Assembly (NCBI GenBank): GCA_013115145.1
Contig: JAAPAO010000109.1
Coordinates: 1-64,000, forward strand
Length of the DNA: 64,000 nucleotides
Direction: 5' to 3'
Source of the DNA: Perkinsus chesapeaki ATCC PRA-425
Taxonomy: Eukaryota; Protista; Perkinsozoa
The notes beneath the pieces were generated by a model. The model saw only the letters and a program-made list of their open reading frames with translations. It made no database searches and had not been told where the DNA came from. A program made the position numbers and the translations under genes. Below, one piece after another: positions 1,332 to 58,019 of this stretch (its first letter is position 1; each line of letters opens with the position of its first letter).

Positions 1332-1348
1332 AGTGGAAAGGCGACTAG

Positions 1349-4783: not shown

Positions 4784-4915
4784 CCCAAATTGTACATGGC
4801 GTGCATGGTCGATTCGAGGAAGATAGATTTGCCCAGTTGCCGGTATTTCATTGGCCTGTTGAGTTAATTACTGATATTTGTATTCCCCCGTAATGGCTCT
4901 TTTGTATGACAGAAT

Positions 4916-6882: not shown

Positions 6883-7396
6883 TCAGTGTTGTTGAACGGT
6901 CAAACCAGCAAGTTCTTCCAGCACTCTTATCCGCTCGTCGAGCTGAGTCCTCAAGTCTCGAACTTCATCCGTGAGGGCTGTAAGATTCACCGTGAGTGAC
7001 TGTATTGTGGCTTGCTGTTCTTGCAATGCCACAGTTAGAACTGCAATTAAGTCCTGGTAAAGGACCGACTTCAGCTGGCCAGCAGATTGATCATCATCTT
7101 CGCTGGACTCGGATTCCGAAGAATGTGTGTGGACAACCTCCGGTAAGATATGCTCCAAATCCTAAAACAACGTATGATGCTAAGTTTAGCGTTTAGGCAG
7201 GACAATTGTTTACCTGTGCGATGAACCCAAAACGAGTTCTATGATCTTTGTCGTCCTTGAGGTCGAAAGCAACTGGACGAAGCTCTCTGAGGAGCCATTC
7301 GCCAATTTTCTTGTCGTCCTCAGCTCGTTCTGCTGCAGTCGCTGAAGCCAGTGACCGCTTCAATGGAATGATGCGCTCCTTCAAACGACGGTCGGA
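6883..7396 (-). other. Peptidase_S74 intramolecular chaperone autoprocessing domain plus coiled coil (~153 aa)
   Basis: Spliced sequence T|SDRRLKERIIPL...LLRELRPVAFDLK...RFGFIAQDLEHILPEVV...VLYQDLIAVLTVALQEQQATIQSLTVNLTALTDEVRDLRTQLDERIRVLE. Ser codon 7396-7394, Lys codon 7381-7379 (Ser+5). Confidence 0.9.
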
Positions 7397-10300
7397 TGTT
7401 GTAAGGGCAACATCAACCTGCCAAGTACCTGAATAAAGTCTCGTAACTACAGAAACTAGACAACTCAGGAAACTTACCATGTAGGTGGCCTGTTTGATCT
7501 GACGTAGCTGATATGACACGAGCGCTGCCCGCATAGAGGTCAAAGCTACCCAGTCGTGCAAAGCTACGTAGTGATAATGAGCTGCCGCAGGTGATTGAGT
7601 CCATTACTGACAATGCCTTGCCAAGCCGGCAAGCATCCAGTAAAGACACCGAACTTCCAAGGCGAGCGAAGGAGCGTAGAGAGAGTGAACTTCCGAATCC
7701 GGAAGCACTCAAGACCGAGAGTGTATCCGATAAGCGCGCATAACCTATAGCTGATAATGTTGAACCCAGACCAGCTGCTCCAACGACAGATACGGAGCTA
7801 CCGACTCTAGAAAATGCTCGGAGGGACACGGAGCTTCCCAAGCATGCAGCATCAAGTGAAGAAAAAGTTGCACCAAGACGGGTCCAAGCAATAGCTGAGA
7901 TAGCTGAACCTGCTTGGGCTACGCCCGTCATAGACACCGCGCTACCGAGCCTAGCAAAGCTCCTCAGAGAAAGTGCACTGCCGAATGACGCCGAAGCGAG
8001 GACCGACATGTGGCTTCCAAGGCGGCCGACTTCAAGGGCAGAAAATGCCGATGAAAGCCTGGTAGCGGAGACGATAGAGAGTGACGAGCCAAACCTCGCG
8101 AACGACCTTAGGGAGATTGAGCTTGCAAGGATAGTAGAGTCGACTACCGAAAGCTTGTAGAGCGAGCCTAGACGTGCGAGGCCCATAACGGACACTCCAC
8201 TTCCAAATCGTGCCATCGAACGTAGCGACAAAGAACTACCTAAACTAGCTACTCCAACGGCCGACAGAGTCCCGCCAAGGCGAGTGAAACTGAGTGCCGA
8301 TAAAGACCCTTCCATTCTAGTGCTACCAGCCACTGAGACACCGCTGCCAAATCGGACGATTGCTCTCAATGAGAGGGAGCTACCGAGGCAAGTTGCGTCA
8401 AGAACGGAGAGCCAAGTACCAAACCTCACGTTAGATAATGCCGACAAAGTGGAGCCTACCCGAGTGACATCCTTGACCGAAATAGAGCTGCCGAGACGAG
8501 AGAATGACCTCAGAGACAAAGAACTGCCAAATTGGGCCCCGTCCGCAACCGATAGCTTATAAAGAGAACCCAGTCGGGTCAAGCCTGCAACACTGACTCC
8601 ACTGCCGAAGCGGGCAAATGCTCGTAAAGAGAGTGAACTGCCGAGCATACTGAAAGATAGAGCAGACATGTCAGCGCCGAGCCTCGTCGTTGAGAGAATT
8701 GAACATGTGCTTCCAATTCTAACCGGAGAGATGACCGAGACAGAGCTACCGACTCTAAGGAAGCTACGAAGGGACAATGAGCTACCTAATAGGGCGGCAT
8801 CCAATACCGAGAAGCTTCCACCGAGACGTCCGTACGAACAAACGGATGCGGCAGAACCAGCCAAGACAGTGCTGACCACAGATAGCGATGAGCCAAATCT
8901 CGCAAAGGAACGCATTGACATAGACGAGCCAAGATGAACTGCATCTAGGGCTGACACAGCGCTGCCAAAGCGGCTAACGGCCAGAACCGAAAGAGTAGAA
9001 GACAGGCTAGTGGCTGATGTGATGGACACGACGCTTCCCAAGCGAGCGAACGAGCGCAGCGACAGCGCACTGCCAAACGTGCTGCAGTCTAGGACAGACA
9101 TGGAGGCCGACAGTCTGGTAGTGGCCACAACAGAGAGTGTGCTGGAGATACGAGCAATACCAACAACAGATATGCCACTCCCAAGCCTGGCGAGAGCTCT
9201 TAACGAGCACGAGCTTCCAAGGTTACCCATAGACAGAAGTGTCAGAGTCCCCTGGAGTCTGCTCTGCCCAACAACAGATATGCCGCTACCAAATCTAGCG
9301 AATGCCCGCAGAGAAAGTGCAGAGCCGAGTGCTACAAAGTCCAAGGCTGAGCACGATGAACCAAAGCGCACAGCACTTAAGGATGAAAGGCTGCTTCCAA
9401 AGTAGCCGCTGCCGCTGACGGATGTTAAACCAAGTGAGCCGAATCTAGCCAATCCAGTAACGGAGATGCTGCTGCCGAATCTTGCGAAGCCCCGAAGGGA
9501 GAGTGAGCTACCAAGGAGCCCCATGTCCAACGTCGAGATAGATCCTCCAAACCTAGTCGAACTTGTGATGGAGCAAGTGCCGCCGAGGTGGATACCAGCA
9601 GTTAGAGAAAGAGAGCTACCGAGCCGAGCGATGCTCCTCAGAGACAATGAGCTTCCACATGCCATTCTGTCCAACACAGACAACTTGTCCCCGAATCGAG
9701 CATGGCCGAGCACGGACGCAGATGAGCCAATCATCGCTGTGCCAACCAAGGATGCACCACTACCAATTCTAGCGAAGCTGCGTAGTGACAGGGATGATCC
9801 AAAGGAGACGCAGCTTAGGGAACTTAGAGAAGCTCCAAGACGGGTACCTCCGAGGGCAGATAGTGTACTGCACATAGTTGCTGCTGATACTATAGATATG
9901 CAGCTTCCTGCCCGTATGAAGGATCTAATGGAGAGAGCGCTGCCGAAGTTGACACTGGCTAGCGCTGAGAGGGCACCTCCGACACGGGCGTAGCTCAGAG
10001 AGGAGAACGCGCTACCGCCCTGAACACGGCCAGAGATAGAAGCAGAGCTGCTCAAACGAGCGAAGTTTCGCAAGGAGAGCGAACTGCCGAGGCATACAGC
10101 GTCGACGGCTGAAAGCGTACTGCCTAGTCTGGTGAGATCAAGCGCGGATACCTGACCTCCAGATGTAATGGCGGTGAGGACAGACAAGACACTGCCTAGG
10201 CGAGCCGCAGAACGCAGGGATAGAGAGCTTCCGAAAGTTGTATAGTCCACAACCGACACTTTGAAGAGCGAGCCCATACGAACCAGGCCGGTAGCGGACA

Positions 10301-13300
10301 CCCCGCTGCCAAACCTGGCGAAGCTACGCAAAGAAAGAGAGCTACCCAGCGCAGTGAAGTCTACTGCTGAGAGAGAAAGCCCCAACCTAGCAGTGCTCAA
10401 GGCCGAAAGAGTGGAAGCAAGACTTGCTGTGGAGACAACTGAGAGAGCAGAACCAACTCTCAAGAAGTCTCTGAGAGATAAGCTGCTTCCGAACGCAGCT
10501 GAGTTCAGAACGGAGAGGCTGCTACCAACCCTAGCATAGGACAATGCAGAGAGGCTACTGCCAAGCTGGCCACTGGATACAACAGATATGTAGCTCCCAA
10601 TACGAGCAAAGGACCTCATCGAGATGGAACTTCCGAGAGAGACGCTGTCAAGGGTGCTCAAACTAGCTCCAACTCGGGCATAAGAGCAGGCGGAAAGAGA
10701 CGATCCAGCTTCCGCACGAGATCTCAAAGACAACGAACTACCCAACCTTGCGAAGCTTCGCAACGATAGAGTGCTTCCAAAGTTGCCCATGTCCAACAGG
10801 GAGACTCCACTGCTGAGGCGGGCCTTGCCAAGGACAGAAGCCGTACTGCCGAGAATCGCCCTGGATGCAATCGATGCCCCGCTACCAAGGCGAGCAAATG
10901 AACGAATAGACAGAGAGCTTCCGAAACCAGAGAAGTCAAGTATCGACAGGCTACTACCCAAGCGGACGGACGAGACTGCGGAAAGCTGCCCGGCCATCAC
11001 TGCGGCACCAGCAACCGAGAGAGAGCTACCCAAACGAGCGAAGCTTCTTAAGGACAACGTGCTTCCAAAGGCGGCGGCATCAACAGCAGAAAGGTAGGAA
11101 GTAGAGCCAATACGCGTGAGACCATCGACGGATATGCTGCTACCGATCCTGCAGAATCCTCTCAAGGAAAGCGAGCTGCCCAGGGTGCCCATACTTAAAA
11201 TAGATGTAGCCGAACCAAGGCGCGCAACGCCCAAAGCAGAAACAGATGAACCGGTGTTGACTACGCCGACAATCGAAAGGGCACTGCCAAACCTAGCAAA
11301 GCTCCGGAGAGACAATGAGCTTCCCAGCGCAATTGTGTCCAGGGCAGAGAGAGTTGAGCCAATGCGGCTGTAGCCTAGAGCTGAGACATCTGCGCCGATC
11401 ACTGCACCACTGGTTGCTGAGATTGAGCTACCTAGGCGAGCGAAAGACCGGAGAGAGAGCGTGCTGGCGAAGGACGTTCCGGCCAGTGTAGAAAGAACAC
11501 TGCCGAACCTAGCTACTTGTACAGCCGATATACTTCCTGCAATGCGAGCCCCAGACAGAAGAGACACAGAGCTGCCAATGCGAGCGAAAGACCTCAACGA
11601 TAGGGTACTTCCGAAGGTTGTGGCATCCACCGTTGATAGTGCACTGCCAACGCGCGCATGCGATAAGGACGAGACTTGGCTTCCCAGGCGCACCACTCCG
11701 GTAGTAGATACTGAGCTTCCGACTCTGGCGAACGATCGCAGCGATAGTGAGCTGCCAAGATAGATACCGTCCAATGCACTGAGTGACTGAGCAAATGAGG
11801 TTCCAGCAGTTATAGAAGCTGAGCTACCAAGGCGAGCGAAGCTCCTCAAGGAAAGTGCGCTTCCAAAAGTAACTTGATCCAGGGCACTAAGGCGACTGCC
11901 GAAGCGAACCGTGCTAACCGTGGAAAGGGCACTTCCGAAGCAGGCAGCGTTGAGAGCAGACAGAGTGGAACCAGCGTAGACCGCACCAAGAGACGAAGTC
12001 AAACCACACACACGCGCAATAGAGGTAATAGATATACCGCTGCCGAGACGAGCGAAAGATCTCATAGACAGCGAGCTACCATATACAGCAGAGTCTATCA
12101 CACTCATGCTGTACAGAGAGCCAATTCGTGTCAAGCCAACAACGGAAAGGCCACTCCCTAGTCGAGCCATACTTCTTAGTGAGAGGGAGCTACCAAGTTG
12201 ACCGAGACCCAAAGCTGAAAGCTTCGATCCGACCCTCAGTGTAGCGCGTAGGGACAGTGAACTACCAAAGTGAGCTGCCTGGATAATTGAAAGGCTACCG
12301 CCGAGTAGAAGGCTTGATTTTGCCGAGATACCACTGCCCATGCGTAGATAACTGCGTAAGCTCAAGGAGCTACCAAGTGTCACAAAATCAACTATCGATA
12401 TCTTGCTTCCTAACCGACCTTGTGACCGAATTGAGAGAGAGCTCCCGAAGGAAGAAGCACCCAGGGATGAGAGAGCATCACCGAAACTTGCCGAAGACAG
12501 AGCCGATAGTGCGCTCCCGACACGTACGCGCTCGGCTGCAGACAGCGAGGAACCAAGCCGCATACATGACCGGAGTGATAAAGAGCTGCCGAGGTTAGCA
12601 TAGTCTACAACGGTAAGTTTACTTCCAAGTCTGGCAAAGTTACGCAAAGACAAAGAACTACCATGGGATGCGCACCCAACAGTAGAAAGGGCGTTACCAA
12701 GCCTCGCTATACCAAGTACAGACATGGCTGAGCCAGTGCGAGTAACACCGGTCACTGATATCGAGCTGCCTAACCTAGCATAACCTCTTATTGAGAGGGA
12801 GCTGCCTAGGTTGACACAGTCCACAATACTAGCAACACTACCAAACCGAGCGAAGCTGCGCATAGAGATCGAAGACCCACAGTTGACGAATTCTGCTACA
12901 GACAAGCTGCCCCCAAATTCCAGTTGACCTTGGGCGAAGAGTCTGCTGTAGAGAGATAGGCTGCTACCGAGTCTCGCAAAGGACCTCAAGGATAGTGAGC
13001 TAGCTAGGTTGGCTGTCAGCATGACAGATAGCATACCCGCAACACGACTGCTACCAACAACGGAGACTGAGCTACCGGTCCTTACGAATGATCGCAGAGA
13101 AACGGAGCTCGCCAGAGTGATAGAGTCGCATACAGATACCCCACCGGTACCAAACCTAGACTGGCCATAGACAGAGATAGAACTACCCAGTCTGCCGATC
13201 GACCGTAAAGATAACGTGCTGGCGAAGGAAGCCGTGCTTATAGTAGATAATGCATAGATCGAACCAAGCCTTGCAAGACCAGTAAGCGACAATCCACTTC

Positions 13301-16300
13301 CTAGGCGAGCAAAGCTTCTCAAAGACAAGCTGCTGGCACAGTGGGCCATGTTGACGATGCTTGCACTGTATATCGAGGTAGTGCGGGTGACACCACAAAT
13401 CGAGACACTGCTGCCAAATCTAGCAAAGCCTCTCATAGATATGGAACTACCAATGGCGGCCATATCGATCAATGATAGTTTAAAGACGCTACCAATTCTA
13501 GCTAGGCCGAGCACCGATATTCCACTACCCAACCGAGCGGCGTGTCGGAGAGACAAGCAGCTGCTCATTGAACCAAAATCATATACTGATAGGGCGGAAC
13601 CGAGGTTTCCTAGAACCCTCACAGATAAAGAACTCCCTAGAGTAGTAGCACTCAAGACCGATAGGGCACTACCAAGTCGAGCCTTGCCCACGGTAGAGAC
13701 ACCACTGCCGAGGCGAGCGAACGCGCGCAGCGACAGGGAGCTGCCGAAGGAGGCCGCATCAAAGATAGAGAGCTTTCCACCAAGGCTGGCGAAAGAACGA
13801 AGGGACACGGAGCTTGATAATTGGACAGCGTTGGACGCCGATATGACTCCACCATGCCAAATCTTAGATGATACTGAGAGGGCACTACCAAGGCGAGCAG
13901 CTGCTCTGAGTGACATACAGCTGCCAATCATAACATGGTCTAAAATTGACAGGGACGCGCCGAAGCGAGTAGCTGACACAGCGGAAAGCCTCGAGCCAAC
14001 CCGACAGAAAGCCCTTACAGACAGGCTACTCGATAGATGAACAAAGTCAAATACCGATAACTTGGATCCACAACGTGAGAAGGCTCTCAGGGATAGGGAA
14101 CTGCCGAATTGAGCCTCATCAATAACAGACAACTTGCGTAACGAGCCTAGTCTGGCAAGGCCAAGTACTGATACACCGCTACCAAACCGGGCTACTCCTC
14201 TAAGTGAGAGAGTACTGCCTAGTGTGACGAAGTCTAGTACGGTTGCAGCAGAGCCTAGTCGAGCAAAGCTTCTTATTGACAGTGTACTACCAAAAGACAC
14301 CGAGTCCACCACTGACAGCTTAGATTGCATATAGGATTTACCATAGACCGATATCGATGATCCAGCAAGGGTACTGGATAATATCGACAGACCAGAGCCA
14401 AGCCTTGCAATAGCACGAATTGACATGCTACTTCCGAGACCGACCTGGTCGAGTACGGACAATTGGCTACCCAAAGAGCCCCTCGACAGAACAGATATCC
14501 TAGAGCCGATCTTGGAGCTGCAACGTAGTGAGAGACTACTGCCCAAGGTAACATAATCCAACACTGAGAGCTTGGAACCAAGTCGAGCAAAGCTTCTAAG
14601 AGATAGAGAACTACCAAGACCAGCCTCAGCTATAGTGGACACCGAGTAAATAGATCCGGTACGGAGTAACCCAAGCACCGAAACGCTGCTTCCCAACCGG
14701 CTGAATGCTCGCAGGGAGAGGCTACTGCCAAACTCGACCTCCTCGAGAACAGAGAGGCGGCCACCAACTCGCGAAAAGGAGCGAACCGATAACACGCTGC
14801 CGAAGTGTGCCTGGTCCAGCACTGACGTTTTGCTGCCCAACCTAGCAAAACTCCTCAGCGATAGAGAGCTACCGAAATGAGCTTGGCCTATCGTACTGAC
14901 ACGACTACCAAATTGGGCGGTGCTGAGCGCTGAAACGCTGCTGGCTAGTCGAGCGAAGCTACGCAGCGACAGTGAGCTTCCAAGATTGAGGGATTCAAGC
15001 ACACTAGCTCGTGAACCCAGTCGAGCGAACGACCTTAGAGAGAGTGAGCTACCCATACTGGCCTGAGCCAACACAGATATAGCCGATCCAAGTGCAGCTT
15101 TCTGCAGAACAGTAACAGCACTGCCCAGTCTGGTAAATGTGCGTAATGACAAACTACTGCCAATGCTCATATTCTCTATAACCGATAGCTTTGAGCCTAC
15201 TCTAGCAAAGCTTCTCAGAGAGATGGAGCTACCAAGGGTTGCGTAGCTCACTAGAGACATGTAGGAACCTAGACGTGCTCCATCGAACAGTGAGAGAGCA
15301 CTTCCCACCCTAAGGAAAGCTCGTAATGACATTGAGCTGCCTAGGATCGAGGTGTCCAGGACTGACAAACTGGAACCGGATCGGCTGAAAGACCGCAATG
15401 ATACCGAGCTTCCTAGAGTAATACGATCTAGGACAGAGAGCGAGGACCCAAGACGTAGCGTCGACAAGAGGGATACTGAGCTCCCCAGTCGGCACGCACT
15501 CCTCAACGACAGGCTACTTCCGAAAGCTACAAACTCGATGGCTGACAGTGATTTACCGATGCTGGCCTTCCCAAGAGCCGAGAAACCAGAGCCAATACGA
15601 GCTATAGATCTCAGGGATAGAGTGCTGCTGAAGGAAACCATGTCCATAACGCTTAGTCGACTGCTCAATCGCATCCACGAGCGGATAGAAAGCGAGCTGC
15701 CGAAGGAGGCGAATCCGAGAGATGATACAGTGCCACCACACCGACTTAGTGAAAGGGCTGACAAGGCATAGCCGAAGCATCCAGATGTAGAGACCGAAAG
15801 GCTGCTACCGAGACGAGCGAAGCTTCGCAAAGAGAACGAGCTTCCAAGAGTCACAGCACCGTAAGCAGACACCGTATATAGTGAGCCTACCCGAGTTAAT
15901 CCAGTGACAGAGACTGTGCTACCAAGCCTTGCAAAGCTTCTGAGCGACAAACTGCTCGAGAGAACACCGCTATCCAGCACAGTGAGGAGGCTTCCCAGGC
16001 GGGCGAAGCTCCTCAATGACATCGAGCTGCCAAATGAGACTGCAGCAATAGCAGATACGCCGGCGCCGAGCCTACAGGCGGATAGTACTGAGACAGTACT
16101 TCCGACTCTCACTAGTGACCGTACCGACAGTGAGCTGCTCAGAGTGGTAAAGTCGACAGTGCTGAGTGAACTGCCTAGCCTTGTGAAGCTGCGTAGCGAG
16201 AGTGAAGTGCCGAGGACAGTGGTATCCAACACAGAGAGCCGCTGAGAGAGCCTTGCAGCGCCCAGAACAGAGAATCCACTGCCAAGCCGGGCGAACTGTC

Positions 16301-19300
16301 TCAGAGATAACGAGCTTCCGAAGGATGTCGAAGCTATAACAGACAAGGTGTATACCGATCCACAGCGAAGAAGGGAGGCCACGGATAGGCTGCTGCCAAG
16401 TCGAGCAAGACTTCGAACACTGAGAGAGCTACCCAGTGACGACAGGTCCCACAAACTCAGCGGGCTGCCAAGTCGAGTAAAGCTTCTAATGGATAACGAG
16501 CTGCCCAATGCTACTTGGTCGAGGACCGATAATGACCCACCCATCTTAGTAACGCCATACGCAGATACGGTACTGCCGAGTCTAGCTGAGCTTCTCATTG
16601 ATAGGGAGCTTCCGAGTAGTACGAAATCTAGTACACTAGACTTGCTGCCAAGACGAGCAAAGCTACGCAGAGAAAGAGTGCTTCCCATCGCAACTTGGTC
16701 TAATACCGAGGTCGTGGAGCCGAGAGAAGTGCGGGCTAGGGTACTTAATGCACTGCCTATCCGGGCAGATCCGCATACAGAGAGAGAGCTACCGAGACGG
16801 GCTGCGGACCTCAATGATAGACTGCTCCCACACTCCACAGCGGAAATGACACTTAGCCGATACACTGAGCCCAGCCGAGCCAGACCGAAAGCAGAGATAC
16901 TGCTGCCGAGCCGGCAAGCGCCTCGAAGAGAGAGCGTGCTCCCGAGGTTAGTGTAGTCAAGGACCGACATTTTGCTACCCAAACGAGAGAAGCCTCTAAG
17001 GGATAGAGAGCTGCCGAAGGTAGCATCAGCGATCACAGACAAGGCGTAAACAGAGCCAACGCGAGTGAGACCAGTGACCGATAGTGAACTGCCAAGTCTA
17101 GCTGCACTTCTCAAGGAAAGCGAACTACCAAACTGGCCACTTGAGATAACACTGAGGCTATACAAGGAACCGAGTCGAGCCAGTTGGGAGATAGAACATG
17201 TGCTTCCTATCCTAACAGCTGCTCGAATAGATAAGGCCGATCCGAAAGATGCAAAATTGCAAATACTTGCGCTGCTTGCAAGTCGGGCAAACGACCTCAG
17301 AGATAGGCTACTGCCATACGATACACTACCTAGTACGCTAGCAGCACCACCTAGGCGAGCATTGCTGAAGACTGATGCTGTGCTGCCCAAACGAGCGAAG
17401 GACCGTAACGATAATGAGCTGCCGAAACCAGTGTAGGCTATCACCGAGAGTCCGTACATGGAGCCAACACGCGACAGGCCATACACGGATACGCCACTAC
17501 CGAACCTCGCCACTCCGCGTAAGGAAAGTGAGCTACCGAGAGCAACCATATCAAGTACCGAAGCTGAGCTTCCGAGTCTTGCAAAGGAGCGAAGAGATAA
17601 AGAGCTGCCTAAGGTAGCTTCAGCAAGAACAGACAGACCACATCCGCAAGGACTGTTAGTATTGCCGAACACCGAGAGGGAACTGCCGAGGCGGACAGCG
17701 CTTCTAACAGACAGGCTACTGCTGAGGGCAGTGAAGCTGAATACTGATAGAACACCACCGAGCCGAGTGAAGCTCCGCAAGGAAAGAGAGCTAGAATATG
17801 CCACAGAACCAAGAGCAGAGAGTGACCCACCCAAGGATGATTTGCTGAATACCGAGAAGGAGCTACCTATCCTCGCAAATGAAGCTAACGAAAGGCTGCT
17901 AGCTAGTGACGTGGAATCGAATATGGACTGTTTGCTGCCTAGCCGAGCGAAGCTTCTGAGGGAGAGGATGCTTCCAAAAGTGGCTGCGCCAATAGCGGTG
18001 AGTGAATCGCCTATTCTTGTAGAACCAAAGGTCGACACCGCACTGCCAACTCTGGCAAATCCGCGCAGTGACAAGCTACTACCAAGGGAAGTCGAACTAA
18101 TGACCGATAGCTGATACATAGATCCTACTCTAGCGAGACCTATAACTGATATACCGCTTCCGAACCTTGATAGGCCTCTGACGGATAGTGCACTGCCCAG
18201 GTATACACTGTCAAGCACCGATAAGTCACTGCCGAGGCGCGCAAAGCTTCTTACCGACAGGGAACTGCCCAGATTAACCATCTCGCAGACTGATACAGCG
18301 AGCAGCGAGCCGAACCTTGTAACTCCAGTAACCGAGAGTGAACTACCGGCCCGAACAACAGCTCTGATAGAAAGGCTGCTACCTAGAGTGGCCAGATCGA
18401 ATACGCTGACTGAACTACCGAGCCTTCCAAAGCTCCGCAGCGAAAGGCTACTTCCGAGGGTAGTAGAGCCGAGGATGGAGTAGGCACCACCAACGAGAGC
18501 AGTAGAGTAGGTAGAGCAAGTACTACCGAAACGCACGACCGAGCGAAGGGAGAGAGAACTGCTCAACGAGACAAAGTCCAAGATGGTTGTCGAGCTCCCT
18601 AGTCGGGCAAAGCTTCTGAGGGACAAGCTACTGCCGAAAGCTGAGCCCTCTAGTATTGAAGCACTAGCGCCAAGTCGAGCGGCCGCAAAGACAGATACAT
18701 CACTGCCTAGTCTGGCAAAACTTCTGAGCGATAGAGAGCTTGCGAAGGAGGAACCAGCAATAACCGAGACCATGTAGACCGATCCGACACGCTGTAAGCC
18801 TTGAATCGAGACACCGCTGCCAAACCTGGCGCAACCTCGTAGAGATAAGGAACTACTCAGAGTTACAAAGTCGAGAACGGATACGCTGGACCCGAGCCGA
18901 GAGAAGCTTCGTAATGACAGAGAACTACCAAGGGAAGCCTCCGAAATGGTGCTGATAGATCCACCAAGACCCATTGCAGCAAGCACGGAGACTGTGCTAC
19001 CAAGCCGCATAGCAGAACGGAGCGATAGGCTACTTCCCAATGACGTGTAGTCAAGAACACTGGCGGATTTACCAAGGCGGGCAAATGTGCGAAGTGACAG
19101 AGAACTTCCGAATGACGCAGCGCCTACGGTCGACAACTTGTCGCCCAGGTGAACCTTGGATAGAGCAGAGAGGCTACTGCCGAATGTCGCCGATGACTTA
19201 ACAGATACAGAGCTAGCGATCCTGGCGAAGGATCGTAACGACAAAGCACTGCCAATTGCCATATCAGAGATAACAGACACCTTATAGATGGAGCCAACAC

Positions 19301-22300
19301 GTGCGAGGCCAGTGATAGAGATTGCACTGCCGAGGCGAGCAAAACCCCTCAAAGACAGTGAACTGCTGAGCAGAGTAGCTTCGAGAACACTGGTTGAGCT
19401 ACCGAGGCGAGCAAAGCTGCGCAATGATAAGCTGCTACCAAACGATGACTGTCCCAAGACACTCAAGCTGCCGCTGATTAAAGCAGACGAACTTGCGGAG
19501 AGTGAGCTTCCATGGCGAAGGACTGCACGTATTGATAACGAGCTGCCAAGCGCTACATAGTCCAAAACTGAGATCTTGGAACCAACCCTTGCGAAGGAAC
19601 GGAGGGAAAGGCTACTGCCTAGATCGCTTTGACCCAGGACACTTACAGAAGAGCCAACGCAGCCACTAGAGAAGATAGAAATTCCGCTTCCGAGTCTAGC
19701 AAGAGACCTCACTGAAAGCGCACTTCCGAGGGTGGTGGATGCAATAGTAGATAGTGCATAGAGGGAGCCCAAGCGCATTAGCCCAGTTATTGAGATACCA
19801 CTACCATATCTTGCAACTGATCGCAAGGACAGGGAACTGCTTAGAGCTACCGAATCGAAGACCGACACACGACTTCCGAGCCGGCCGAAGCTCCGTAGTG
19901 ATAGGGAACTTCCGAGGTAAGACTCGGCAACAACTGACAGAGACTGACCAATCTTCGACAAACCAAAGGTAGAGATCGAACTGCCAAAACGTGCCATGGA
20001 CCGTACCGATAAGGCGCTAGCAAGATTCACAGTATCGAGCACGGAGAGTCGCGATCCCAATAGGCCAAAGCTTCGGAGTGATAAGCTGCTGCCTAGCTGT
20101 GATTCGGAAAGGACTGATACTGAGGCACCTGATCTAACGAAGGAAAGTGCTGAGATTGCCGAACCAACGTTAGCAGTTCCACTAATCGACAGGCCACTCC
20201 CCAGTCGAGCAAAGGACCGCAACGAGAGACTGCTAGCTAGGCATGTGCTGTCGATTACACTAAGCTTGTATACAGAGCCCAACCTAGTAAGGCCCGTAAC
20301 AGACGCACCACTGCCGATTCTAGCGAACGACCGTAATGACAACGCACTTCCAAGACTGGCAGTGTCAAATACACTGAGCTTGGAGCCAAGACGACCAAAT
20401 CCTCTCAAGGAAAGGGTGCTGCCTATGTGGACATACCCCACACAAGAAGCAAGCGAGATAGATCCAAATCTAGCCACCGAAGCGGTTGAGACAGAACTAC
20501 CGAGCCGTACTGCGGATCTGACCGAAAGGCTGCTTCCGAGAACGGTATAGTCCATGACGGACACTTTGCTACCAAGACGAGCAAAAGACCGCAGAGATAG
20601 GGAACTACCGAAGGCAGCGCGGCCTATAACAGAAGCGGTACTCATGGATCCCAGCGTACCAAGGCCCGCAGCAGAGATACCGCTGCCGATCCTTAAGAAG
20701 GAACGGAGAGACAGAGAGGACCCGCATTGGACGGAATCGAATACAGATAGTTTGCCAGCAAAAGTGCTCTTGTCGCCAGAACCAACCGATAAACTACTTC
20801 CAATACGAGCAAAGCTCCTGCAGGAGAGGCTGCTACCTAATGTTATATGGTCGAATACCGTAGCTGAACTTCCCAACCTTGCAAATGACCGTAAGCTGAG
20901 CGAGCTTCCGAGTACATTAGCAGCTATGGCAGAGAGCTTGTAAACAGAACCAACCCTACACAAACCCGTTACGGACAAGCCACTGCCGAGTCGGGAAACG
21001 CTACGTAGGGAGAGGGAGCTGCCGAAGGTTGCCGAGCCCAGGACGCTTGCTGTGGTCGCTAGTCTGGCAAACGACCTCAACGATAATGCGCTACTGAAAG
21101 TCGCCGATTCAACGACCGAGCAGAGCCCACCTAGTCTTGCGAATGAGCGAAGTGATAGGGTGCTTCCAAAGGATGCCTGGCTTTGCACAGACAAAGAGCT
21201 ACCTAATCGAGTACCAAGGAGAGCCGAGAGGGTACTTCCACACCGAGCAGCAGTCCTCAGTGACAGAGAGCTACCCAAAGCGCAGTGGTCGAGTATAGAT
21301 ACGCCGTCACCAATACGAGCAAACGAGCGTAGAGAAAGCGAGCTACTGAATGACGAGCACCCTATGGTAGAAAGGGCACTCCCGAGAAGAGAGGCTCCCA
21401 CAACAGAAGTCGAGCTGCCTATCCTAGACATGCTTCTTACTGACAGAGAGCTGCCTAAGGATACTTGATCTATGATAGAGAGAGAATAAACAGAACCAAC
21501 CCTGTAGAGACCAGCAACAGATAAACCACTGCCGAGACGAGCGAAAGATCGTAAGGACAAGGCGCTGCCGAAAGAGGTGCAGTCGAGAGCGGAGAGACGA
21601 CCACCAATGCTAGCTATGTTACGTATGGAGAGAGTGCTACCCATGTTGACGTAGTCCAACAGTGATAGTGTACCGGCAAAACGTGATCGTTCCGCTATAG
21701 ACAAACTACTGCCACAACGGAGGAAGGTCCTCACTGAAAGGGAGCTGCCAAGAGCCACAAACTCCAATAGGGAGGATCTTGACCCCATTCTAGCAAACCC
21801 ACGGAGCGAGAGAGAGCTGCCAAGATGGGAGAAGCTCAGAACGGAAGCGCTTGCACCAAGTCGTGCGGCCGACAAGGCTGAGACAGTACTCCCAAGGCGA
21901 GCGACCGACCTTAGTGATAATGAGCTGCCTAAGGTTGGATAGTCTAGCACTGATAGACTCCCGCCTAGCGCGGATTTTCCGTAGGCCGATACAGCACTAC
22001 CAAAGCGTGCAAATGTTCTGAGCGACAAGGCACTCCCGAGAACAGTGCAGTCCAGGCTAGACACAGTACCAGCGAGGCGACTGAAGCTCCGGAGAGAGAG
22101 GGAGCTGCCGAAGGCTATTGAGCCAAGAACAGTAGCAGAGCTACCGAGCATTCCACGGCCAAGCACTGACATGGAGCTGCCCAGTCGAGCAGCAGACCGC
22201 AGTGATAAAGAACTGCCCAGAGTTGCAGAGCCAATTATGCTGATAGTGGTAAGTGAGCCAACCCTTGCTAGACCTGCAACCGATAGGCCACTGCCAAGAC

Positions 22301-25300
22301 GAGAGAAAGCTCTTAATGACAATGAACTGCCGAAAGCAGCGGAGTCTAGGACACTAACCTTGCTACCGAACCTGGCAAAGCATCGTAGGGATAGCGAGCT
22401 GCCGAAAGCGACGGAATCCAACACAGTAAGGCTGCTGCCCACAGTGGAAGCAGCGTACACCGAAGTACTATCTCCAAGCCTGGCGAATCCGCGGATCGAT
22501 AGTGAACTACCGAAGTTAGTGTAGTCGAACACGGTAGCACAACTCCCTAGCCTCGCGAATGAACGTAACGATAGCGAGCTACCGAAGTGTGCCTCCTCGA
22601 GGACAGACAGAGCACTGCCAATCATTCCGCTACCGAAGAGAGAGATACTGCTGCCTAGCTTGGCCACGCCTCTCAGGGATAGCGAGCTGCCTAACGTAAC
22701 GGAGGCTATAACGGATTGAGATGATCCTAGCCTTGTGACACCGTAAAGAGAGGCGGAGCTACCAACGCGTACAAATGACCGCAGGGAGAGGGAGCTTCCC
22801 AGTTGAGTGGAATCGAAAACGGATACTTTCTGGCCAAGTCTAGCCATATTCCGCACAGATAGTGAACTCCCGAGTGCCACCATATCAATCACTGATGCTT
22901 TGTAAACTGAGCCGAACCGAACCAGGCCAGTCACCGATAAACCGCTGCCCAACCGAGCAAATCCTCGGAGAGACAGTGAGCTACTGACTGAAGAGTAATC
23001 GACCACGGAGAGCGATTCACCAAGGGAAGCTGAATATTGTACAGACAGAGAGCTGCCTAAGCGGCCGAAAGACCTTAGAGAGAGGGAGCTAGCAAGCAGG
23101 CTACATTCGAGAGCACTAACGGAACTCCCTAATCTGCTGAAGCTTCGCAAAGATAGAGAGCTACCAAGGGTGATAGCCCCGATAATGCTTAAAGACGAGC
23201 CCACAGCGATGGCAGAGGCTGTAGAGACTGCGCTACCCACTCGGAAGAATTGTCGTAGGGAGAGAGCACTGCCTAGGTTAACAGCATCTAGGATGGAGAT
23301 ACTGCTTCCTAGTCTACCAGTGTTGAACACGGACATTGAGCTGCCCATGCGAGTAACAGCAGCCAATGACAGAGAGCTACCAAGGGTAGTATAGTCGGTA
23401 ACAGAAAGCTTGCTACCCAGACGAGAAAAAGATCTCAGTGATAATGAGCTACTCAGAACATTCATAGCAATCACCGAAAGTTTGTATAGAGAACCAATGC
23501 GGGCTAAGCCTTGCACTGATATACCACTACCAAACCGGCCAACAGCTCTTAGCGATAAACTGCTTCCAAAGGAGGCCAGATTCAAGGAAGAGATAGCTGA
23601 CCCAAATCGCCCTGTTGAGACCAACGAGAGAGCACTGCCGAGCCTCAAAGAGCTCCTCAATGAGAGAGAGCTACCAAGGGAGACGTAGTCTAATACGGAC
23701 ATCTTACTGCTCATTCTAGCGAAGCTGCGCAAAGACATAGTACTTCCTAAGTTACAGTATTCCACCAGGGATACAGCGCTACCGAACCAGGTCCGCTGAG
23801 TTACACTGAGGCCGCTGCCTAACCTAGCTAAACTTCGGACTGATAGTGAGCTCGAGAGCCTGGTGAAGTCTATAACGCTAGCGGAACTTGCGAGTCGAGC
23901 GAAACTCCGGAGAGACAAGGCACTGCCGAAGGTTAGAGCCTCAGCAACCGAGAGGGATGATGATAGTCTTGTTGCAGCCAATACTGAGACACCACTACCG
24001 AACCGGGCTAGAGATCGCAGAGATAATGAGCTGCCAAGCTGAGCATCACCAAGAATACTCAAAGCAGCACCATATCTTGCACCTCCCAGCAGCGATAAAG
24101 AACTTCCGATCCTAAGGAAATTACGCATAGATAACGCACTTCCAAAGTTAGCTCGATCTAATACAGTAGTGTGGTGGCCGATTCTCGCAAACGACTTCAA
24201 TGATAGTGAACTCGCTAATGTTACAAAGTCGAGCACCGAAGTCGAACCACACAGCCTCGCGAAGGAACGAAGGGACAATGAGCTGCCGAAGGACGCATGC
24301 CCTATAGTACTCAAAGACGAACCAAGCATGGCACCCCCGACTAATGAGGCCGAACTGCCAACCTTGGCGAAGCACCGCAATGACAAGGAGCTTCCTAACG
24401 AGGTGAAGTCTAGTACACTTAGAGAGAGGCCAAGGCTTGACATGCCGAATGCAGAGAACCCGCTTCCTGCACGATGATAGCTCCTAACTGATAGGGAACT
24501 ACTGAATTCAGCAGCACCAATAATGGATAAGACCGAGCCCAAACGGAAGCTGCTCCAAGTGGATAAGGAGCTGCCAATCCTACAGAAGCTCCGAAGAGAG
24601 AGGCCGCTGCCGAGACCAACCTCCGATAGCACAGACAAAGATGCACCGTGAAGAGATTTTAAAGCGACAGACAGTCCAGAGCCAAACCGGCTGACAGCTC
24701 GAAGGGATAGACTGCTGCCAAGGTGGGTACAGCCGAGAGCAGAGAGCTGATTGCCGACACCGAGTTTGGTACCAGCTATAGATAACGAGCTTCCAGCTCT
24801 CAACATCGATCGAAGTGACACAGCTGATCCACAATGTAGGACGTCGAGCGTTGAAATAGAGCTACCCAGTCTTGCCATACCATATAAGGATATCGCGCTG
24901 CCTAGCCTCGAGAAGCAACGTAAGGAAAGTGTGCTTCCGAAGGATGTGGTAGCCAATGCAGTCAGTGTGTTACCAAGACGGCAACGACCGACAACAGAAG
25001 CGGAGCTACCAACTCTAACAAAGTTGCGTAAAGACAGTGAGCTACCTAGCACGGTTTGCTCGATCACGCTCAATGTTTTACCCAATCGCAAGCTCTCTCT
25101 GACAGAAAGGGCACTACCGAAACGCGCCAAATACCGTAGGGATAGAGAACTACCCAGGTCAGCAAAAGACACCACTGATAGTGAACCACTGAGGCGGGCT
25201 AGCGCTACCAAGGAAAGGGTGCTTCCTAACCTTGCGAATTGACGCAGAGAGACACAGCTACCAATCTGACCCATATCGAGGACTGAGAGTGCTGCCCCGA

Positions 25301-28300
25301 GGCGTGCGTTGGATATAGCTGAGATACTATCTCCTGCTCTGAGGAACGATCGGAGTGATAAGCTGCTGCCAAGCGAGACCATATCGAGACTGCTGAGCGA
25401 GCTACCCAGTCTCGTTACCGACTTCACTGACATAGAGCTTCCAACCCTGGTCATGCTCCGCAGCGACAAAGCTGATCCCAGAGAGGCTGCCCCGAGAGCG
25501 CTAAGTGTATCACCGAGTCTAGCACACTTAAATGATGAGACTGCTGATCCCAGGCGAGAGAAGGAGCGCAGGGATAGGCTGCTGCCGAAATGGGCATAGC
25601 CTAGAGCAGAGATGCTGTCACCTAGGCGCGAAATGCTGGCGACCGACAGTGTACTTCCCAGGCGACAGAAGCTGGCAATTGATACACCATCCTCCATTTC
25701 TAGGACACCGCCGATAGTGGCTGAGCCTGCCACCTTAAGATCTGTACCCACCGAGAGGGAGCTTCCTAGCCGAGCGAAGGACCTCAGTGATAAAGAGCTA
25801 CCCAAAGAGCATGCATCCAAGGCAGAAAGTTGATGGCCCAATTTAGTAGCCAAACACGTTGACACAGTGCTGCCAAACCTGGCAACATGTCTCAATGATA
25901 GTGAGCTTGTAAGCATAGCTGTATCGAATACAGTTAAGCTTGAGCCCAGATTGGCTGTTGCACTGATGCTTAGACCACTACCAAGTCTCGAAAAGGATCG
26001 GAGTGACATTGAGCTGCCAAGGCTAAGATAATCCAAAATGGACAAGTCCTTGCCGAGTCGTACGCTAGCCATAGAGGAAAGCAGAGAGCCAATTCGGCTG
26101 AAGCTCCGTAAAGACAGGGACGATGCCACTACGGAGCAGTCCAGAGTTGAGAGAGTCGAACCAAGCCGCGCGGCACCGATCGCTGACACTGAGCTACCGA
26201 GGCGAGAGTAAGATCTCAGAGATATAGCACTGCCGAAGTTGATCAAGTCGACGACCGAGCAACGCTTACCGAGAGATATATCGGATAGGAGGGATGCGGT
26301 CGAACCGAGACGAACAATACTTCTGACCGACAGAGAACTGCTCATATGAACAAAGCTCAAACATGAAAGGCTACTACTGAGCCTTGTGGAGCTGGATACA
26401 GACATGTGGCTGCCTATCCTCATCATGGACCTCAAGGAAAGAGAGCTTCCCAAGGAAACCCTGTCAAGGACGGAGAGGGTACTACTCAACCTTGCACAAG
26501 ATACCAGGGATAGGCTACTACCCAGTCTTGCAAATGAGCTTAACGATAGTGCACTACCTAGTGACGCTGAAGAGAGTGTTGATACCACTCTGCCAAACTG
26601 AGCAGAGGAGAATACACTCATAACACTGCCAAGGCGACTAGCGCTTCTTAGGGAAAGAGAGCTACCGATGGTGCAGTAATCTAAGGCCGTAAGCTTGGAT
26701 CCCAAACGGCAGAAGCTCCGGAAGGATAGAGAACTACCAAAGTTAGCTACATTAACAACTGATAGACAAGAGCCGAGTGTTGCGCGCCCAAGAGCTGAAA
26801 CAGAGGATCCCAAGCGAGCAAGGCTTCGTAAAGAGAGGGAGCTCGCAAGAGATGCTGCGTCTAGGACAGAATAGGAGCCTCCACAACGGCCTGTAGAGAA
26901 CGCAGAGAAGCTGCTTCCTAGGCGTGCGGTAGACCTGAGTGATAATGAACTACCAAGGTTAATGTAATCAAGGACGGTAGCACTAGAACCAAGCCTTGAG
27001 AATGAACGGAGGGACAACGAACTGCCAAAGCTAGCTCCGGCAAGTACTGACGAGGAAGCGCCAAGTTGGCATTTAGAGTAGACAGACAGTCCACTACCAA
27101 GCCTAGCCACTGAGCGTAGTGAAAGAGTAGACCCGAAGGACGCGTGATCAATAAGACTCATAGAAGATGAGAAGCGCGCCAGTCCAAGCAAGCTAATACC
27201 ACTACCAAGCCTCGCCAAGGACCGAAGGGATAGGGATGTACCGATATTACTAGTATCTAACACCGATAGCGTTGAACCAAATGTTGCTCTTCCAAGAGTG
27301 CTAGCTGTAGACCCCAGACGGACAAAGCTTCTGAGGGACAGTACGCTTGCAAGTTGGACATAAGCAACCACGCTTGTCTTGCTACCAAGCCTTGCAAACG
27401 TCCTCAAGGATAAGCTGCTACCTAGAGTAAACTTATCCAGGACAGACGTTGAAGAGCCGCACGTCACAGTACTCATCACGGACATAACACTACCGAGCCG
27501 CGCAAGACTCCTTATGGAGAGAGCACTACCGAATGTGGCGTAGTCAAGTAAGGATGCTGACAGACCGAAGCGAGTAAGACTTGAGATGCTCAGCCCGCTA
27601 CCAAGGCGAGCCGTGCTCCTCAGAGACACTGAGCTACCGATATTTACCAAGTCTAGAACAGTAAGATCTGACCAGCACCGTATATGGCTACCTAGTCGAC
27701 TGAAGCTTCTTAGTGAAAGAGAGCTGCCGACAGTGAGAGAGTTGAGAACTGAAAGAGAGGATCCGAGGGTACTTCCAGCAAATACGGATATTGAGCTGCC
27801 GAATCTGGTTACTGCACGGACAGAGAGCGAACTGCCAAGATGTAGGAAGTCGATAACAGTAGCTTTACTGCCGAGTCTAGTAAAGCTCCTCAACGACAAG
27901 GAGCTGCCAAGATTGACAGAGCCTAGGACTGTAAGGCCACTGCCAAACATGGTCTGGCTAGTCACAGATAGGGCGCTACCAAGGCGGAAGAAACCTCGTA
28001 CAGATAGAGAACTGCCTAGTAGAGCAGCGTCGATGACCGAGGTGTGGCTTCCCAGTCTACTGAAGGAACGGAGAGAAAGAGAGCTGCCAAGAGCGACTTG
28101 CTCGAGGACCGTCAACTCGCTACCATATCTGGCGAAAGACCGTACTGAGAGTGAGCTACCAAGGGTGGTGGCAGCGAGTACGGAGATGGAAGAACCCAAC
28201 TGCGCCGTACAATAGGTAGAGGTACTACTGCCAAATCTAACCATAGCACGGAGAGACAGCGTACTGCCGAGGTTCATCATGTTGAAGATACTCGCTGTAG

Positions 28301-31300
28301 AACCGAACCATGCCATGCCGGCTATGGAGTAGGTACTGCCAAGGCGGGCAAAGCTACGTAAAGAGCACGAGCTTCCAAGGCTACAAGAGTCGAGGGCTGA
28401 TAAACTACCAGACAGCACCGAGCGACCAAGGACCGATGCTACGCTACCAAGCCGAGCAGCACTTCTCAAGGAGAGGGTACTTCCAAGTATCACTGTATCC
28501 AACACAGAGAGGCTTAGGCCCAATCTGGCAAGGTCGAAGACTGATAGTTGGCTTCCAACCCTAGCCAAAGAGCGTAGAGAAAGTGAACTACCAAGGCTGG
28601 TGGTGAGCATTATTGATAAAGTATCGCCCAAACGAGATTCGCCAAATATCGATACAACACTGCCAAAACGGACAAGTGATCGTACAGAGAGAGAGCTTCC
28701 AACTGTGGTGAAGTCTAGCGTACTGAGAGAGCTACCAAGCTTAGAGGCGCTATAGACGGAGAGGTCACTACCAAAACGGACAATAGCTCTAAGCGATAGA
28801 GAGCTCCCAAGGGTAGCCGAGTCGAGTGCCGATACTGCTTCACCGAGTCGGATAGCCGACATGATAGAGCAGCCACTACCAAGTCTGGCGAAGCTTCGAA
28901 GAGATAAGCCGCTGCCGAACATTACAGCATCGACAGTTGAGAGTACCGAACCAAAGCGTACGTGAGAGAGTGTTGATAAGGCAGAGCCATGGGAAACAGC
29001 CCCGGCAACGGATAAGCTACTGCCAAGGCGACCAACAGCTCTTAGTGATAGGCTGCTGCCCAAGGCCAGGAAGTCAAGCACTGATGCCTTGCTACCAAAC
29101 CTCGCGAAACTACGCAGTGAGAGGGAGCTACCGTAGTGAGCAGCTCCTAGTACCGATACGCTAGATCCGTGTTGCGCAATACCAGTTACGCTCATATACG
29201 ATCCAAATCTTGCTGTGCTCCTCAAAGAAAGCGAGCTACCTAATGCCACGAAGTCAAATGCCGAGAGATGGCCTCCAACCATGCCGCTCATTGTAAGCGA
29301 AAAGGTGCTGCCAAAGCGAGCAAATCCACGCAGTGATAGGGCGCTGCCAATCTCAGTGTGGGAGATAACAGACAGGGTGTTTGCAAGGTTGCACGCCTTA
29401 AGTACTGATAAAGCAGATCCAAACCGTGCGAAAGATCGCAGTGATAGTGAGCTGCCTAGGGACGCTTCGGCTAACGCAGATAGCGAACTGCCTAAGGTAG
29501 AGCCAGAGAAGGCTGATATCGAGGAACCGCACCGGAGTAGGGAACGGAGGGACAGTGAACTAGCTAGAGTAGAGTAATCAAGGACGCTAACAGAGCTACT
29601 GAGACGAGCTCTCTCGAGGAGTGATAGTTCACTACCCATACGAGCCATAGACCTCAATGACAGGGATGAACCGAGGCTCACACAGTCGAGGGCAGAAATG
29701 CCACTACCAAGACGAGCACTCATACCAACCGAAGCGACACTGCCAATTCGGACAAGGCCTCTGAGAGATAGGGAACTGCCCAGAGTGACCAGGTCTAGGA
29801 CAGTTAAGAAAGAGGCCAGACTTCCAGAAGCCTTCAAAGACAGCGTACTACCGAAGCGAGCCATGCTTCGCAAGGAGAGGGAGCTGCCCAACGCCGAGGC
29901 ATCGAAGGCAGACAAGGTAAGGCCGAGTCTGGCACAGCTCAGCGAACTGACAGCAGAACCTACCAGGCACGAACCTGCTACTGAACTAGCACTGCCGAAG
30001 CGAACAAAGGATCTCAGAGAAAGCGAGCTACCGAAGGTACCGTAGTCCAAAACGGAGAGCTTACTCCCTAGACGAGAGAAGCTTCTGAGAGAAAGGGAGC
30101 TTCCAAAGTTAGCATTGTCGTACACGGAGAGCACAGCACCGATATCAGTAGCCGCGTGAGCAGATACAGTGGAGCCCAGAGCTGTAGCTGAGGCCACTGA
30201 GATGGAACTACCCAGCCTAGCAAAACTGCGGACAGAGAGGCTACTGCCTAATGCCAAGGCATCCAAGATGCTCAACTTGCTACCGAATCTAGCAAAGCTT
30301 CGTAAAGATAGAGAGCTACCCAAATGACCCACGCCAACAGTGCTTAGTGATGCAGCATAAGCTCCTCCGACTGCCGATAGAGAGGAGCCAATCCTAGCAA
30401 CTGACCGAACTGATAAACTGCTACCCAGAAGGATATAGTCCAGCACCGAGGCACTGATGCCAATCCTGCTATGGGACGCTACCGACACAGATGAACCAAA
30501 GCGTGCAATGCTTCGGACTGATAGTGAGCTACCAAGCTGGACAAGATCGACAATAGAGAGAGTGCTGCCTAGTCTAGCGTTATCCAAAACCGAGAGAGAG
30601 CTACCAAATCTGGCGAGTTGCCTTACAGAAAGAGAGCTCCCTAAACAGGTGTAGTCTAGGACGGAGACTTTGCTACCAAGGCGGGCAAAGGATCTCAATG
30701 AAAGAGAGCTACCAAAGTTCGAAGTTCCGATAGCAGAGAGGCTTGCACTCAATAATGCATTGTTAGTCGCTGACAATGTAGATCCGAATCTAGCCATCGA
30801 GCGTAAGGATAGGCTGCTACCCAAGGTCATATAGTCAAGTGCTGAGACACTGCTGCCTAACCTAGAGAATGACCTCAATGATAGGGAGCTGCCAAAGGTA
30901 ACCTGTGAGAGGATCGTTAGCTGTGCACCAAGGAGCATGTCACTATACACCGACATAGAGCTGCCGCATCTCGCAACTGCCCGCAAAGACAGTGAGCTGC
31001 CGAGGGCAGTGGTGTCAAGAACGCTCAAGCCCCTGCCAAGACGAGTTTTCGAAAACACGGAGGCACTGCTGCCAAATCTAGCCACAGCCCGTAGAGACAA
31101 GGAACTGCCAAGAGCGGAGGCATCGAGAGCGGACAACTTGGAACCCAGCGACGCTTGGCCATAGACAGAAGCGGAGCTACCCACCCTAAACATAGCTCTC
31201 ACCGAGAGGGAGCTACCCAGAGTGACATAGTCTAATACTGAGATACTCGAGCCGAACCTGCCGTAGCCTCTGAGGGAGAGAGTGCTACCGAGGGCAGTTG

Positions 31301-58014: not shown

Positions 58015-58019
58015 AAACG

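What the first reader, a model, noticed from the sequence alone, without database searches (positions are those of the whole stretch)
6883..7428. Intact S74 autocleavage site hidden by two introns
The ORF track ends the giant ORF in intron sequence (GHLHG-KFPELSS). Removing introns 7477-7429 (49 nt) and 7213-7162 (52 nt) restores GHLHGTWQVDVALTT|SDRRLK...GFIAQ|DLEHILPEVV...YQDLIAVLTVALQEQ and a coiled coil. The Ser...Lys(+5) dyad, the GxIAQ glycine and the terminal helix are all retained, so the chaperone looks catalytically competent. It should release a ~153-aa fragment.
Basis: partly seen in the sequence, partly recalled or inferred. Interest (0 to 1): 0.85.

Follow-up and report, generated by a model that had tools for sequence, protein, structure and literature searches.

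The report
Self-cutting cap on giant protist fibre
Two small introns interrupt the end of a predicted 14,000-amino-acid gene from a Perkinsus-like protist, and once they are removed the gene ends in an intact phage-type chaperone domain that likely folds a micrometre-long, sugar-coated, three-chain fibre and then likely cuts itself off, a design already described in 2025 whose job is still unknown.

Summary
Both introns are GT..AG. Removing them opens the frame to a stop at 6883 and predicts a 153-aa, 17.4 kDa piece starting SDRRLK. This splice scores best of 1,572 alternatives. Relatives, including dinoflagellate transcripts and a Perkinsus olseni gene model, are contiguous at both junctions. 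Residues shown to matter in MYRF and phage chaperones are present. No RNA covers the junctions, and cleavage is inferred.

The site is barely hidden: the Ser-Lys dyad lies within one exon that Pfam detects alone. The domain caps a 12-exon, 14,144-aa protein with a signal-peptide-like start and about 1,132 GSxxSx7 repeats. That is the TLP-12 glycofibril design (bioRxiv 10.1101/2025.09.30.679562), whose alveolate candidates were already reported to end in this chaperone. This scan also noted such a gene in another genome.

What this window adds is an end-to-end Perkinsus-type model with a likely secretion signal and a predicted length near 1.09 µm. P. olseni zoospore flagellar hairs measure about 1.3 µm, so the fibre may be that hair. 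Verdict: new member of a known kind.

The parts
49716..49818 (-). Predicted exon 1: start Met and a signal-peptide-like 16 residues (hydrophobic run, small-residue cut site before Trp)
   Evidence: four P. olseni proteins seen begin with or contain the same kind of segment. Judged by eye and hydropathy; no signal-peptide predictor was available.
48534..49671 (-). Predicted exons 2-9 (eight short exons between 39-62 nt GT..AG introns): about 250-aa N-terminal domain and the first repeats
   Evidence: The joined model is open with one stop; 334 of 374 residues identical to P. olseni models P0160 and P0162.
7478..48489 (-). Giant 41-kb exon: nearly all of about 1,132 twelve-residue GSxxSx7 repeats, then a roughly 35-aa neck before the cleavage site
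   Evidence: period 12/36; Gly at position 1 in 86%, Ser/Thr at 2 in 83% and at 5 in 100% (rounded), hydrophobic at 4, 6, 12 in 93-98%.
7429..7477 (-). Intron, 49 nt, phase 1, GT..AG
7214..7428 (-). Exon with the predicted scissile bond (Thr|Ser), the Ser-Lys dyad, LRELRP and FGFIAQ
   Evidence: PF13884 E=1.1e-8; alignment.
7379..7396 (-). SDRRLK: predicted nucleophile Ser (7396-7394), Asp, and predicted general-base Lys (7381-7379)
   Evidence: equivalence to MYRF S587/K592 and endoNF S911/K916 from PMC8326128.
7214..7228 (-). GFIAQ motif with the conserved glycine
   Evidence: MYRF G626 / endoNF G956 in PMC3742443, matched by motif.
7162..7213 (-). Intron, 52 nt, phase 0, GT..AG
6883..7161 (-). 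Last exon: rest of the chaperone core, an acidic low-complexity loop, the QDLIAVLT helix and coiled coil, stop
   Evidence: PHROG tail-fibre hits, best E=4.9e-7; best heptad register 76% hydrophobic at a/d; helix residues conserved in 110-114 of 114 relatives.

Best explanation
The two introns interrupt an intact S74 (ICA) intramolecular chaperone at the C-terminus of a predicted 14,144-aa, likely secreted 12-mer repeat protein of a Perkinsus-like alveolate, and this domain likely trimerises three chains, likely seeds their winding into a glycan-coated triple-beta fibre about 1.1 µm long, and then likely cuts itself off before the Ser of SDRRLK as a 153-aa piece. Shown from sequence and tools: introns, open frame, motifs, repeat register, and agreement with relatives at both ends of the gene. 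Predicted: the trimer (modelled for a dinoflagellate relative only). Taken from the TLP-12 cryo-EM structure: triple-beta geometry, 9.6 A per repeat, O-glycans on positions 2 and 5. Inferred from MYRF and phage work: Ser-Lys cleavage after trimer folding. My leading guess for the role is the zoospore flagellar hair (about 0.35).
For: Splice. Domain: Pfam. The model of relative P0020 matches MYRF ICA 7DC3 first (Foldseek E=0.01, probability 1.0; VIA-align Z 7.3, rmsd 2.9 A, 113 aligned), then endoNF chaperone 3GW6 (Z 5.7, rmsd 3.7, 105 aligned) and T5 fibre 4UW8 (Z 5.1, rmsd 6.8, 148 aligned); these Z values are middling. Trimer of P0020 residues 12-333: score 0.77, best of 3 controls 0.00, runs agree in at least 70% of contacts, pLDDT at least 58; the mark was met by 21 of 30 solved pairs and 0 of 23 single chains, and by 17 of 29 eukaryotic pairs but only 1 of 7 without an older solved relative, so the pass may come from likeness to solved ICA trimers; confident contacts cover residues 135-331 (neck, chaperone, coiled coil). 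Repeats: 805 of 1,132 units are strict GSxxS, 943 have Ser/Thr at both 2 and 5, matching TLP-12's G1, S2, S5 and its strands at 4-6 and 10-12. 5' model: 89% identical to P. olseni models. No 19-residue window reaches transmembrane hydropathy.
Against: No read or contig spans either junction, so splicing rests on homology. The invariance of SDRRLK, LRELRP and FGFIA (116 of 116) is inflated because the search needs shared 5-residue words; only the last-exon motifs are an unbiased count. The endoNF helper Arg897 lies 14 residues before its Ser; by plain offset this protein has His there and most relatives Thr, although MYRF cleaves with no stalk residue involved. The TLP-12 fibre came from pond water and was tied to alveolate proteins by sequence search, not purification. 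The closest C-terminal relative is only 55% identical against 89% at the N-terminus, so it may be a paralogue.
Confidence: 0.8

Rival explanations
1. The domain trimerises and chaperones folding but is not cut off, staying as a cap or anchor at the fibre end.
For: I found no cleavage test for any member of this family. No Arg at the endoNF R897 offset. Some relatives carry long C-terminal tails after the coiled coil (P0118, P0120, P0121, P0138), which could serve a lasting role.
Against: Ser, Asp, Arg(+3), Lys(+5), Gly, Ile and Gln are kept; MYRF needs no stalk Arg. Keeping a dyad from perkinsids to dinoflagellates is easiest to explain by catalysis, though the count is biased by the search.
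Confidence: 0.14
2. The introns are not removed as drawn (retention or other sites), so the protein ends at 7413 without a chaperone, or the locus is decaying.
For: Two database predictions (P0005, P0007) read into these intron positions.
Against: Canonical ends; best of 1,572 forms; named transcript-derived relatives P0004, P0017, P0020 and P0086 are contiguous; P. olseni model P0156 has both junctions; a 41-kb exon without a stop argues against decay.
Confidence: 0.04
3. On role: the fibre is not a flagellar hair but a cell-coat, attachment or extrusome (trichocyst-head) fibre, or an extracellular carbon store as the TLP-12 authors suggest.
For: The TLP-12 discussion names carbon storage and host-parasite roles. 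Trichocyst heads in Psammosa are also about 1 µm long. Amoebophrya spores have both hairs and trichocysts.
Against: A signal-peptide-like start fits hairs thought to form in the perinuclear space, but fits any secreted fibre too. Predicted 1.09 µm is near the 1.3 µm hair length. From memory, not checked: Symbiodiniaceae and Perkinsus lack typical trichocysts yet have this gene family.
Confidence: 0.55

Closest known systems
TLP-12 glycofibril and its alveolate candidate proteins (e.g. Amoebophrya A0A8J1ZHD7, 19,853 aa; bioRxiv 10.1101/2025.09.30.679562)
   Same: GSxxSx7 dodecapeptide repeats with G1, S2, S5; giant size; C-terminal ICA domain; alveolate host. The paper cites a Perkinsus genome paper where it describes the 6 species holding about 150 candidates.
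   Different: Here 14,144 aa and 805 strict repeats against 19,853 aa and 1,263. The main text has no hit for 'signal peptide', one for 'cleav' (the domain name) and no word starting 'flagell'. Its Fig. S5 could not be seen and may list Perkinsus proteins like this one.
MYRF / MrfA ICA domain (PDB 7DC3)
   Same: Eukaryotic S74 domain with Ser-Lys dyad, Asp+1, Arg+3, GxIAQ and C-terminal triple coiled coil.
   Different: MYRF frees a transcription-factor trimer from the ER membrane and has a transmembrane helix after the ICA. This protein has none, and caps a 13,700-residue repeat shaft.
Phage tail-fibre and tailspike chaperones (endoNF 3GW6, T5 fibre 4UW8, 6F45)
   Same: C-terminal chaperone after a beta-rich trimeric fibre; profile hits to many PHROG tail-fibre families.
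   Different: Nuclear, intron-containing, likely secreted and glycosylated eukaryotic gene with a far longer shaft; no Arg at the R897 offset.
Perkinsus olseni fragments FOZ60_008328, FOZ62_000018 (N-terminal) and FOZ62_010629, FOZ60_014796 (C-terminal)
   Same: 84-89% identical N-terminus, 55% identical C-terminus, same C-terminal junctions.
   Different: Those records are 137-421 aa pieces; this window holds the gene from start to stop.

Membership tests
Peptidase S74 / ICA chaperone (PF13884) | Profile match above the curated cut-off | tested here: met
   35.7 bits against 22, E=1.1e-8, for exon 7214-7426 alone.
Peptidase S74 / ICA chaperone (PF13884) | Ser...Lys(+5) dyad with Asp/Asn after the Ser | tested here: met
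   SDRRLK at 7396-7379; requirement.
Peptidase S74 / ICA chaperone (PF13884) | GxIAQ glycine and C-terminal coiled coil | tested here: met
   GFIAQ at 7228-7214; heptad register 76% hydrophobic; helix 288-337 in the model of relative P0020.
Peptidase S74 / ICA chaperone (PF13884) | Homotrimer | tested here: inconclusive
   Predicted for relative P0020 only: 0.77 against best control 0.00, possibly from likeness to solved ICA trimers. The window's own spliced domain was not folded.
Peptidase S74 / ICA chaperone (PF13884) | Self-cleavage before the Ser | not testable with these tools
   Needs protein work.
TLP-12-type glycofibril proteins | Long array of GSxxSx7 dodecapeptide repeats | tested here: met
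   1,132 units, 805 strict GSxxS in register; 1,087 of 1,128 spacings exactly 12 in the giant ORF.
TLP-12-type glycofibril proteins | C-terminal ICA domain | tested here: met
TLP-12-type glycofibril proteins | Alveolate host | tested here: met
   N-terminus 84-89% identical to Perkinsus olseni proteins; short AT-rich introns.
TLP-12-type glycofibril proteins | Triple-beta shaft with two strands per repeat | tested here: inconclusive
   Hydrophobic positions 4, 6, 10, 12 fit the published strands. The monomer model shows short strands at a 6-residue period but has mean pLDDT 52.
TLP-12-type glycofibril proteins | O-glycans on positions 2 and 5 | not testable with these tools
   Acceptor Ser/Thr present at both positions in 943 of 1,132 units; glycans not testable.
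MYRF/MrfA membrane-bound transcription factors | Transmembrane helix after the ICA domain | tested here: not met
   Highest 19-residue hydropathy in the last 170 aa is 1.16; feature from PMC3742443.

The most novel reading that the evidence does not exclude
This gene encodes the unidentified flagellar hair (mastigoneme) filament of perkinsids and dinoflagellates: a single secreted chain acts as a length ruler (1,132 repeats x 0.96 nm = 1.09 µm, near the 1.3 µm tinsels of P. olseni zoospores), folded by a phage-type self-removing chaperone. That would give TLP-12 a home and make myzozoan hairs a kind distinct from green-algal and stramenopile ones.
Probability: 0.35. Interest if true: 0.75.

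Novelty: new member of a known kind. Interest (0 to 1): 0.35.

Why it matters
The cleavage site alone matters little: it is a standard S74 site in a protein family whose chaperone was already noted. The value is in the complete gene. Of the P. olseni records seen here, all are short pieces, while this window links a signal-peptide-like start, a 250-aa head, about 1,130 repeats and the chaperone in one frame. That fixes a predicted fibre length and points to export through the secretory pathway. It turns the open question of what TLP-12 fibres do, and what dinoflagellate and perkinsid flagellar hairs are made of, into a direct test of repeat number against hair length.

Tried and rejected
No whole genome is held for this window, so paralogue number could not be counted. 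RNA: no RNA holder listed; the two same-label runs laid on window 1-12000 gave no cover at the gene; this is no evidence either way. The single exon found 0 PDB sequences; family profiles reached 6F45, 8JOV and weakly 7DC3. The repeat profile found only weak hexapeptide acyltransferase hits, best E=0.007; I rejected a left-handed beta-helix enzyme reading because the period is 12 and TLP-12 fits directly, and no TLP-12 chain appeared in these searches. Pfam has no family for the repeats or the N-terminal domain. The repeat monomer model was too weak for a fold search. In the trimer model the repeats (residues 12-134) had no confident contacts, which is no evidence either way. A scan for in-frame introns inside the giant exon (GTRAG..YAG, 36-78 nt, under 40% GC) found 0; richer-GC ones would be missed. 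Recent internal duplication is rejected: 1,056 of 1,132 units are distinct and the only DNA self-match was 100 nt at 74%. Searches for trichocyst absence in Symbiodiniaceae and for stage-specific expression in Perkinsus gave nothing usable.

Full report
Observation. The giant minus-strand ORF (48599-7413, 13,728 codons stop to stop) ends inside an intron. The segments 7477-7429 (49 nt) and 7213-7162 (52 nt) begin with GT and end with AG; removing them leaves one open frame to a stop ending at 6883, and the piece from the Ser of SDRRLK is 153 aa, 17.4 kDa.

Is the splice right? Four lines say yes. The middle exon alone scores 35.7 bits on PF13884 (cut-off 22). The middle and last exons separately match adjoining positions, 325-373 and 374-444, of one phage tail-fibre profile. 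Of 1,572 enumerated splice forms the stated pair scores best against a family profile, 174 bits against 164 and 14.5 unspliced. Of 116 relatives found with the middle exon, 112 of the 115 long enough to judge are contiguous at the first junction and 114 of 116 at the second; P0005 (P. olseni) and P0007 read into intron-like text at exactly these places, which suggests shared intron positions. The P. olseni model P0156 has both junctions and is 55% identical over 246 columns. Direct RNA support is missing: no holder was listed and the two runs laid gave no cover.

Is the site competent? PMC8326128 (passages and section 7) reports that MYRF S587A and K592A block cleavage, that these equal endoNF S911 and K916, and that R590, I637 and Q639 help hold the site. 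PMC3742443 (passages) adds D579 and G626 (endoNF N912, G956) and the leucine zipper. The window has Ser, Asp, Arg(+3), Lys(+5), the Gly, Ile and Gln of GFIAQ, and a coiled coil. The first motifs are invariant in 116 of 116 relatives, but that count is inflated by the word-based search. The last-exon helix, which was not in the query, is a fair test: Asp 114, Ala 113, Leu 112 and Gln 110 of 114. Against: by offset alone there is no Arg where endoNF has R897, though MYRF manages without a stalk residue. Folding was done on a transcript-derived relative, P0020, not on the window's spliced domain. Its model ranks MYRF ICA, the endoNF chaperone and the T5 fibre first, with middling Z of 7.3, 5.7 and 5.1. 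Three copies score 0.77 against a best control of 0.00, with runs agreeing in at least 70% of contacts and pLDDT at least 58; the mark was reached by 21 of 30 solved pairs and 0 of 23 single chains, but a pass may come from likeness to solved ICA trimers.

What the domain caps. The giant exon is an array with period 12 and a 36-residue super-period. Nine more short GT..AG introns at the 5' end give a 12-exon model of 14,144 aa with a single stop. A search with one 5' exon found 2 proteins among 1.84 billion representatives: a P. olseni protein at 87% and a weak bacterial fibre hit. P. olseni models match my 5' model at 334 of 374 residues and share the signal-peptide-like start. The host is thus Perkinsus-like. 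The model holds 1,132 units with Gly at 1 (86%), Ser/Thr at 2 (83%) and 5 (100% rounded), and hydrophobic residues at 4, 6 and 12 (93-98%). Repeat-plus-S74 proteins also occur in dinoflagellate transcripts and genomes (34 of the 116 hits carry the repeat motif), and repeats occur in Vitrella.

Known? Yes. bioRxiv 10.1101/2025.09.30.679562 (passages covering most of section 7, sections 5 and 10) reports TLP-12, a pond-water fibre solved at 3.0 A: three intertwined chains of dodecapeptide repeats, invariant G1, glycans on S2 and S5, strands at 4-6 and 10-12, rise 9.6 A. It names Amoebophrya proteins of about 20,000 aa with GSxxSx7 repeats and a C-terminal ICA, and about 150 candidates from 6 alveolates, citing a Perkinsus genome paper. 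It was the only paper holding 'TLP-12' from 2024 on.

How it most likely works. The chain would enter the ER by its N-terminal signal (inferred). The C-terminal coiled coil and ICA core would trimerise three chains and seed winding of the shaft (by analogy with phage fibres; trimer predicted for a relative). Ser/Thr at positions 2 and 5 would be O-glycosylated (from TLP-12). The Ser, activated by the Lys, would then cut the Thr-Ser bond and release the 17.4 kDa chaperone (from MYRF and endoNF). At 0.96 nm per repeat the shaft would be about 1.09 µm.

Role. PMC7398310 (one passage) gives P. olseni zoospore tinsels as 1.3 µm long, with a printed spread of 2.9 µm that cannot be right, so the match is loose. 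PMC3377698 (passages) notes fibrous material in the perinuclear space of dinoflagellates and perkinsids, read as hair precursor without molecular evidence, and also 1-µm trichocyst heads. Amoebophrya spores have a hairy flagellum and trichocysts (10.1101/2025.04.10.648098, passages). PMC12423646 and PMC5029502 (passages) added nothing decisive. I found no paper naming a myzozoan hair protein or linking TLP-12 to hairs in searches (listings seen); the library lacks most subscription journals. I put the hair reading at 0.35.

Verdict. Real feature, sound interpretation, known design. Interest 0.35; new member of a known kind.

Noticed in passing
window 7478-48489 (-): GC rises along the single giant exon from about 0.40-0.47 at the 5' end to about 0.55 near the 3' end; the 5' introns are 16-41% GC and the two 3' introns 37%.
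   Followed up: no
window 7478-48489 (-): 31 repeat spacings are 14 rather than 12 residues (e.g. GSLYKLS-type inserts) and a few are 18-26; these may be kinks or loops on the shaft. The exon is almost free of proline and the whole model has only 7 N-glycosylation sequons.
   Followed up: no
window 48534-49818 versus 6883-7800: The N-terminus is 84-89% identical to P. olseni while the C-terminus is 55%: either several paralogues exist or the chaperone end evolves faster.
   Followed up: partly
window 49241-49381 (-); P0158: One N-terminal exon weakly matches (E=9e-6) repeats in a 3,709-aa Ekhidna 'tail fiber domain-containing protein' that also ends in an SDRRLK chaperone: a possible bacterial analogue or source.
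   Followed up: no
P0141, P0144-P0147, P0153: vWA/VIT-domain proteins, one named from the dinoflagellate Durusdinium, carry short stretches like the same 12-mer repeat.
   Followed up: no
window 4910-6460 (+): 516-codon ORF with two methyltransferase (PF08241) stretches, converging on the fibre gene's 3' end.
   Followed up: partly
window 354-1439 (-): Weak phospholipase/carboxylesterase hit below cut-off; one contig from each of runs X1 and X2 matches short parts of 802-977 with divergence.
   Followed up: no
window 57924-58934 (+): Subtilase (PF00082, E=7e-33) in an uninterrupted 336-codon frame.
   Followed up: partly
window 60113-62911 (-): Two long ORFs (454 and 441 codons) with no Pfam hit above cut-off.
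   Followed up: partly
window 52000-57000: AT-rich stretch with strong positive GC skew, up to +0.35, probably an intron-rich gene; not examined.
   Followed up: no
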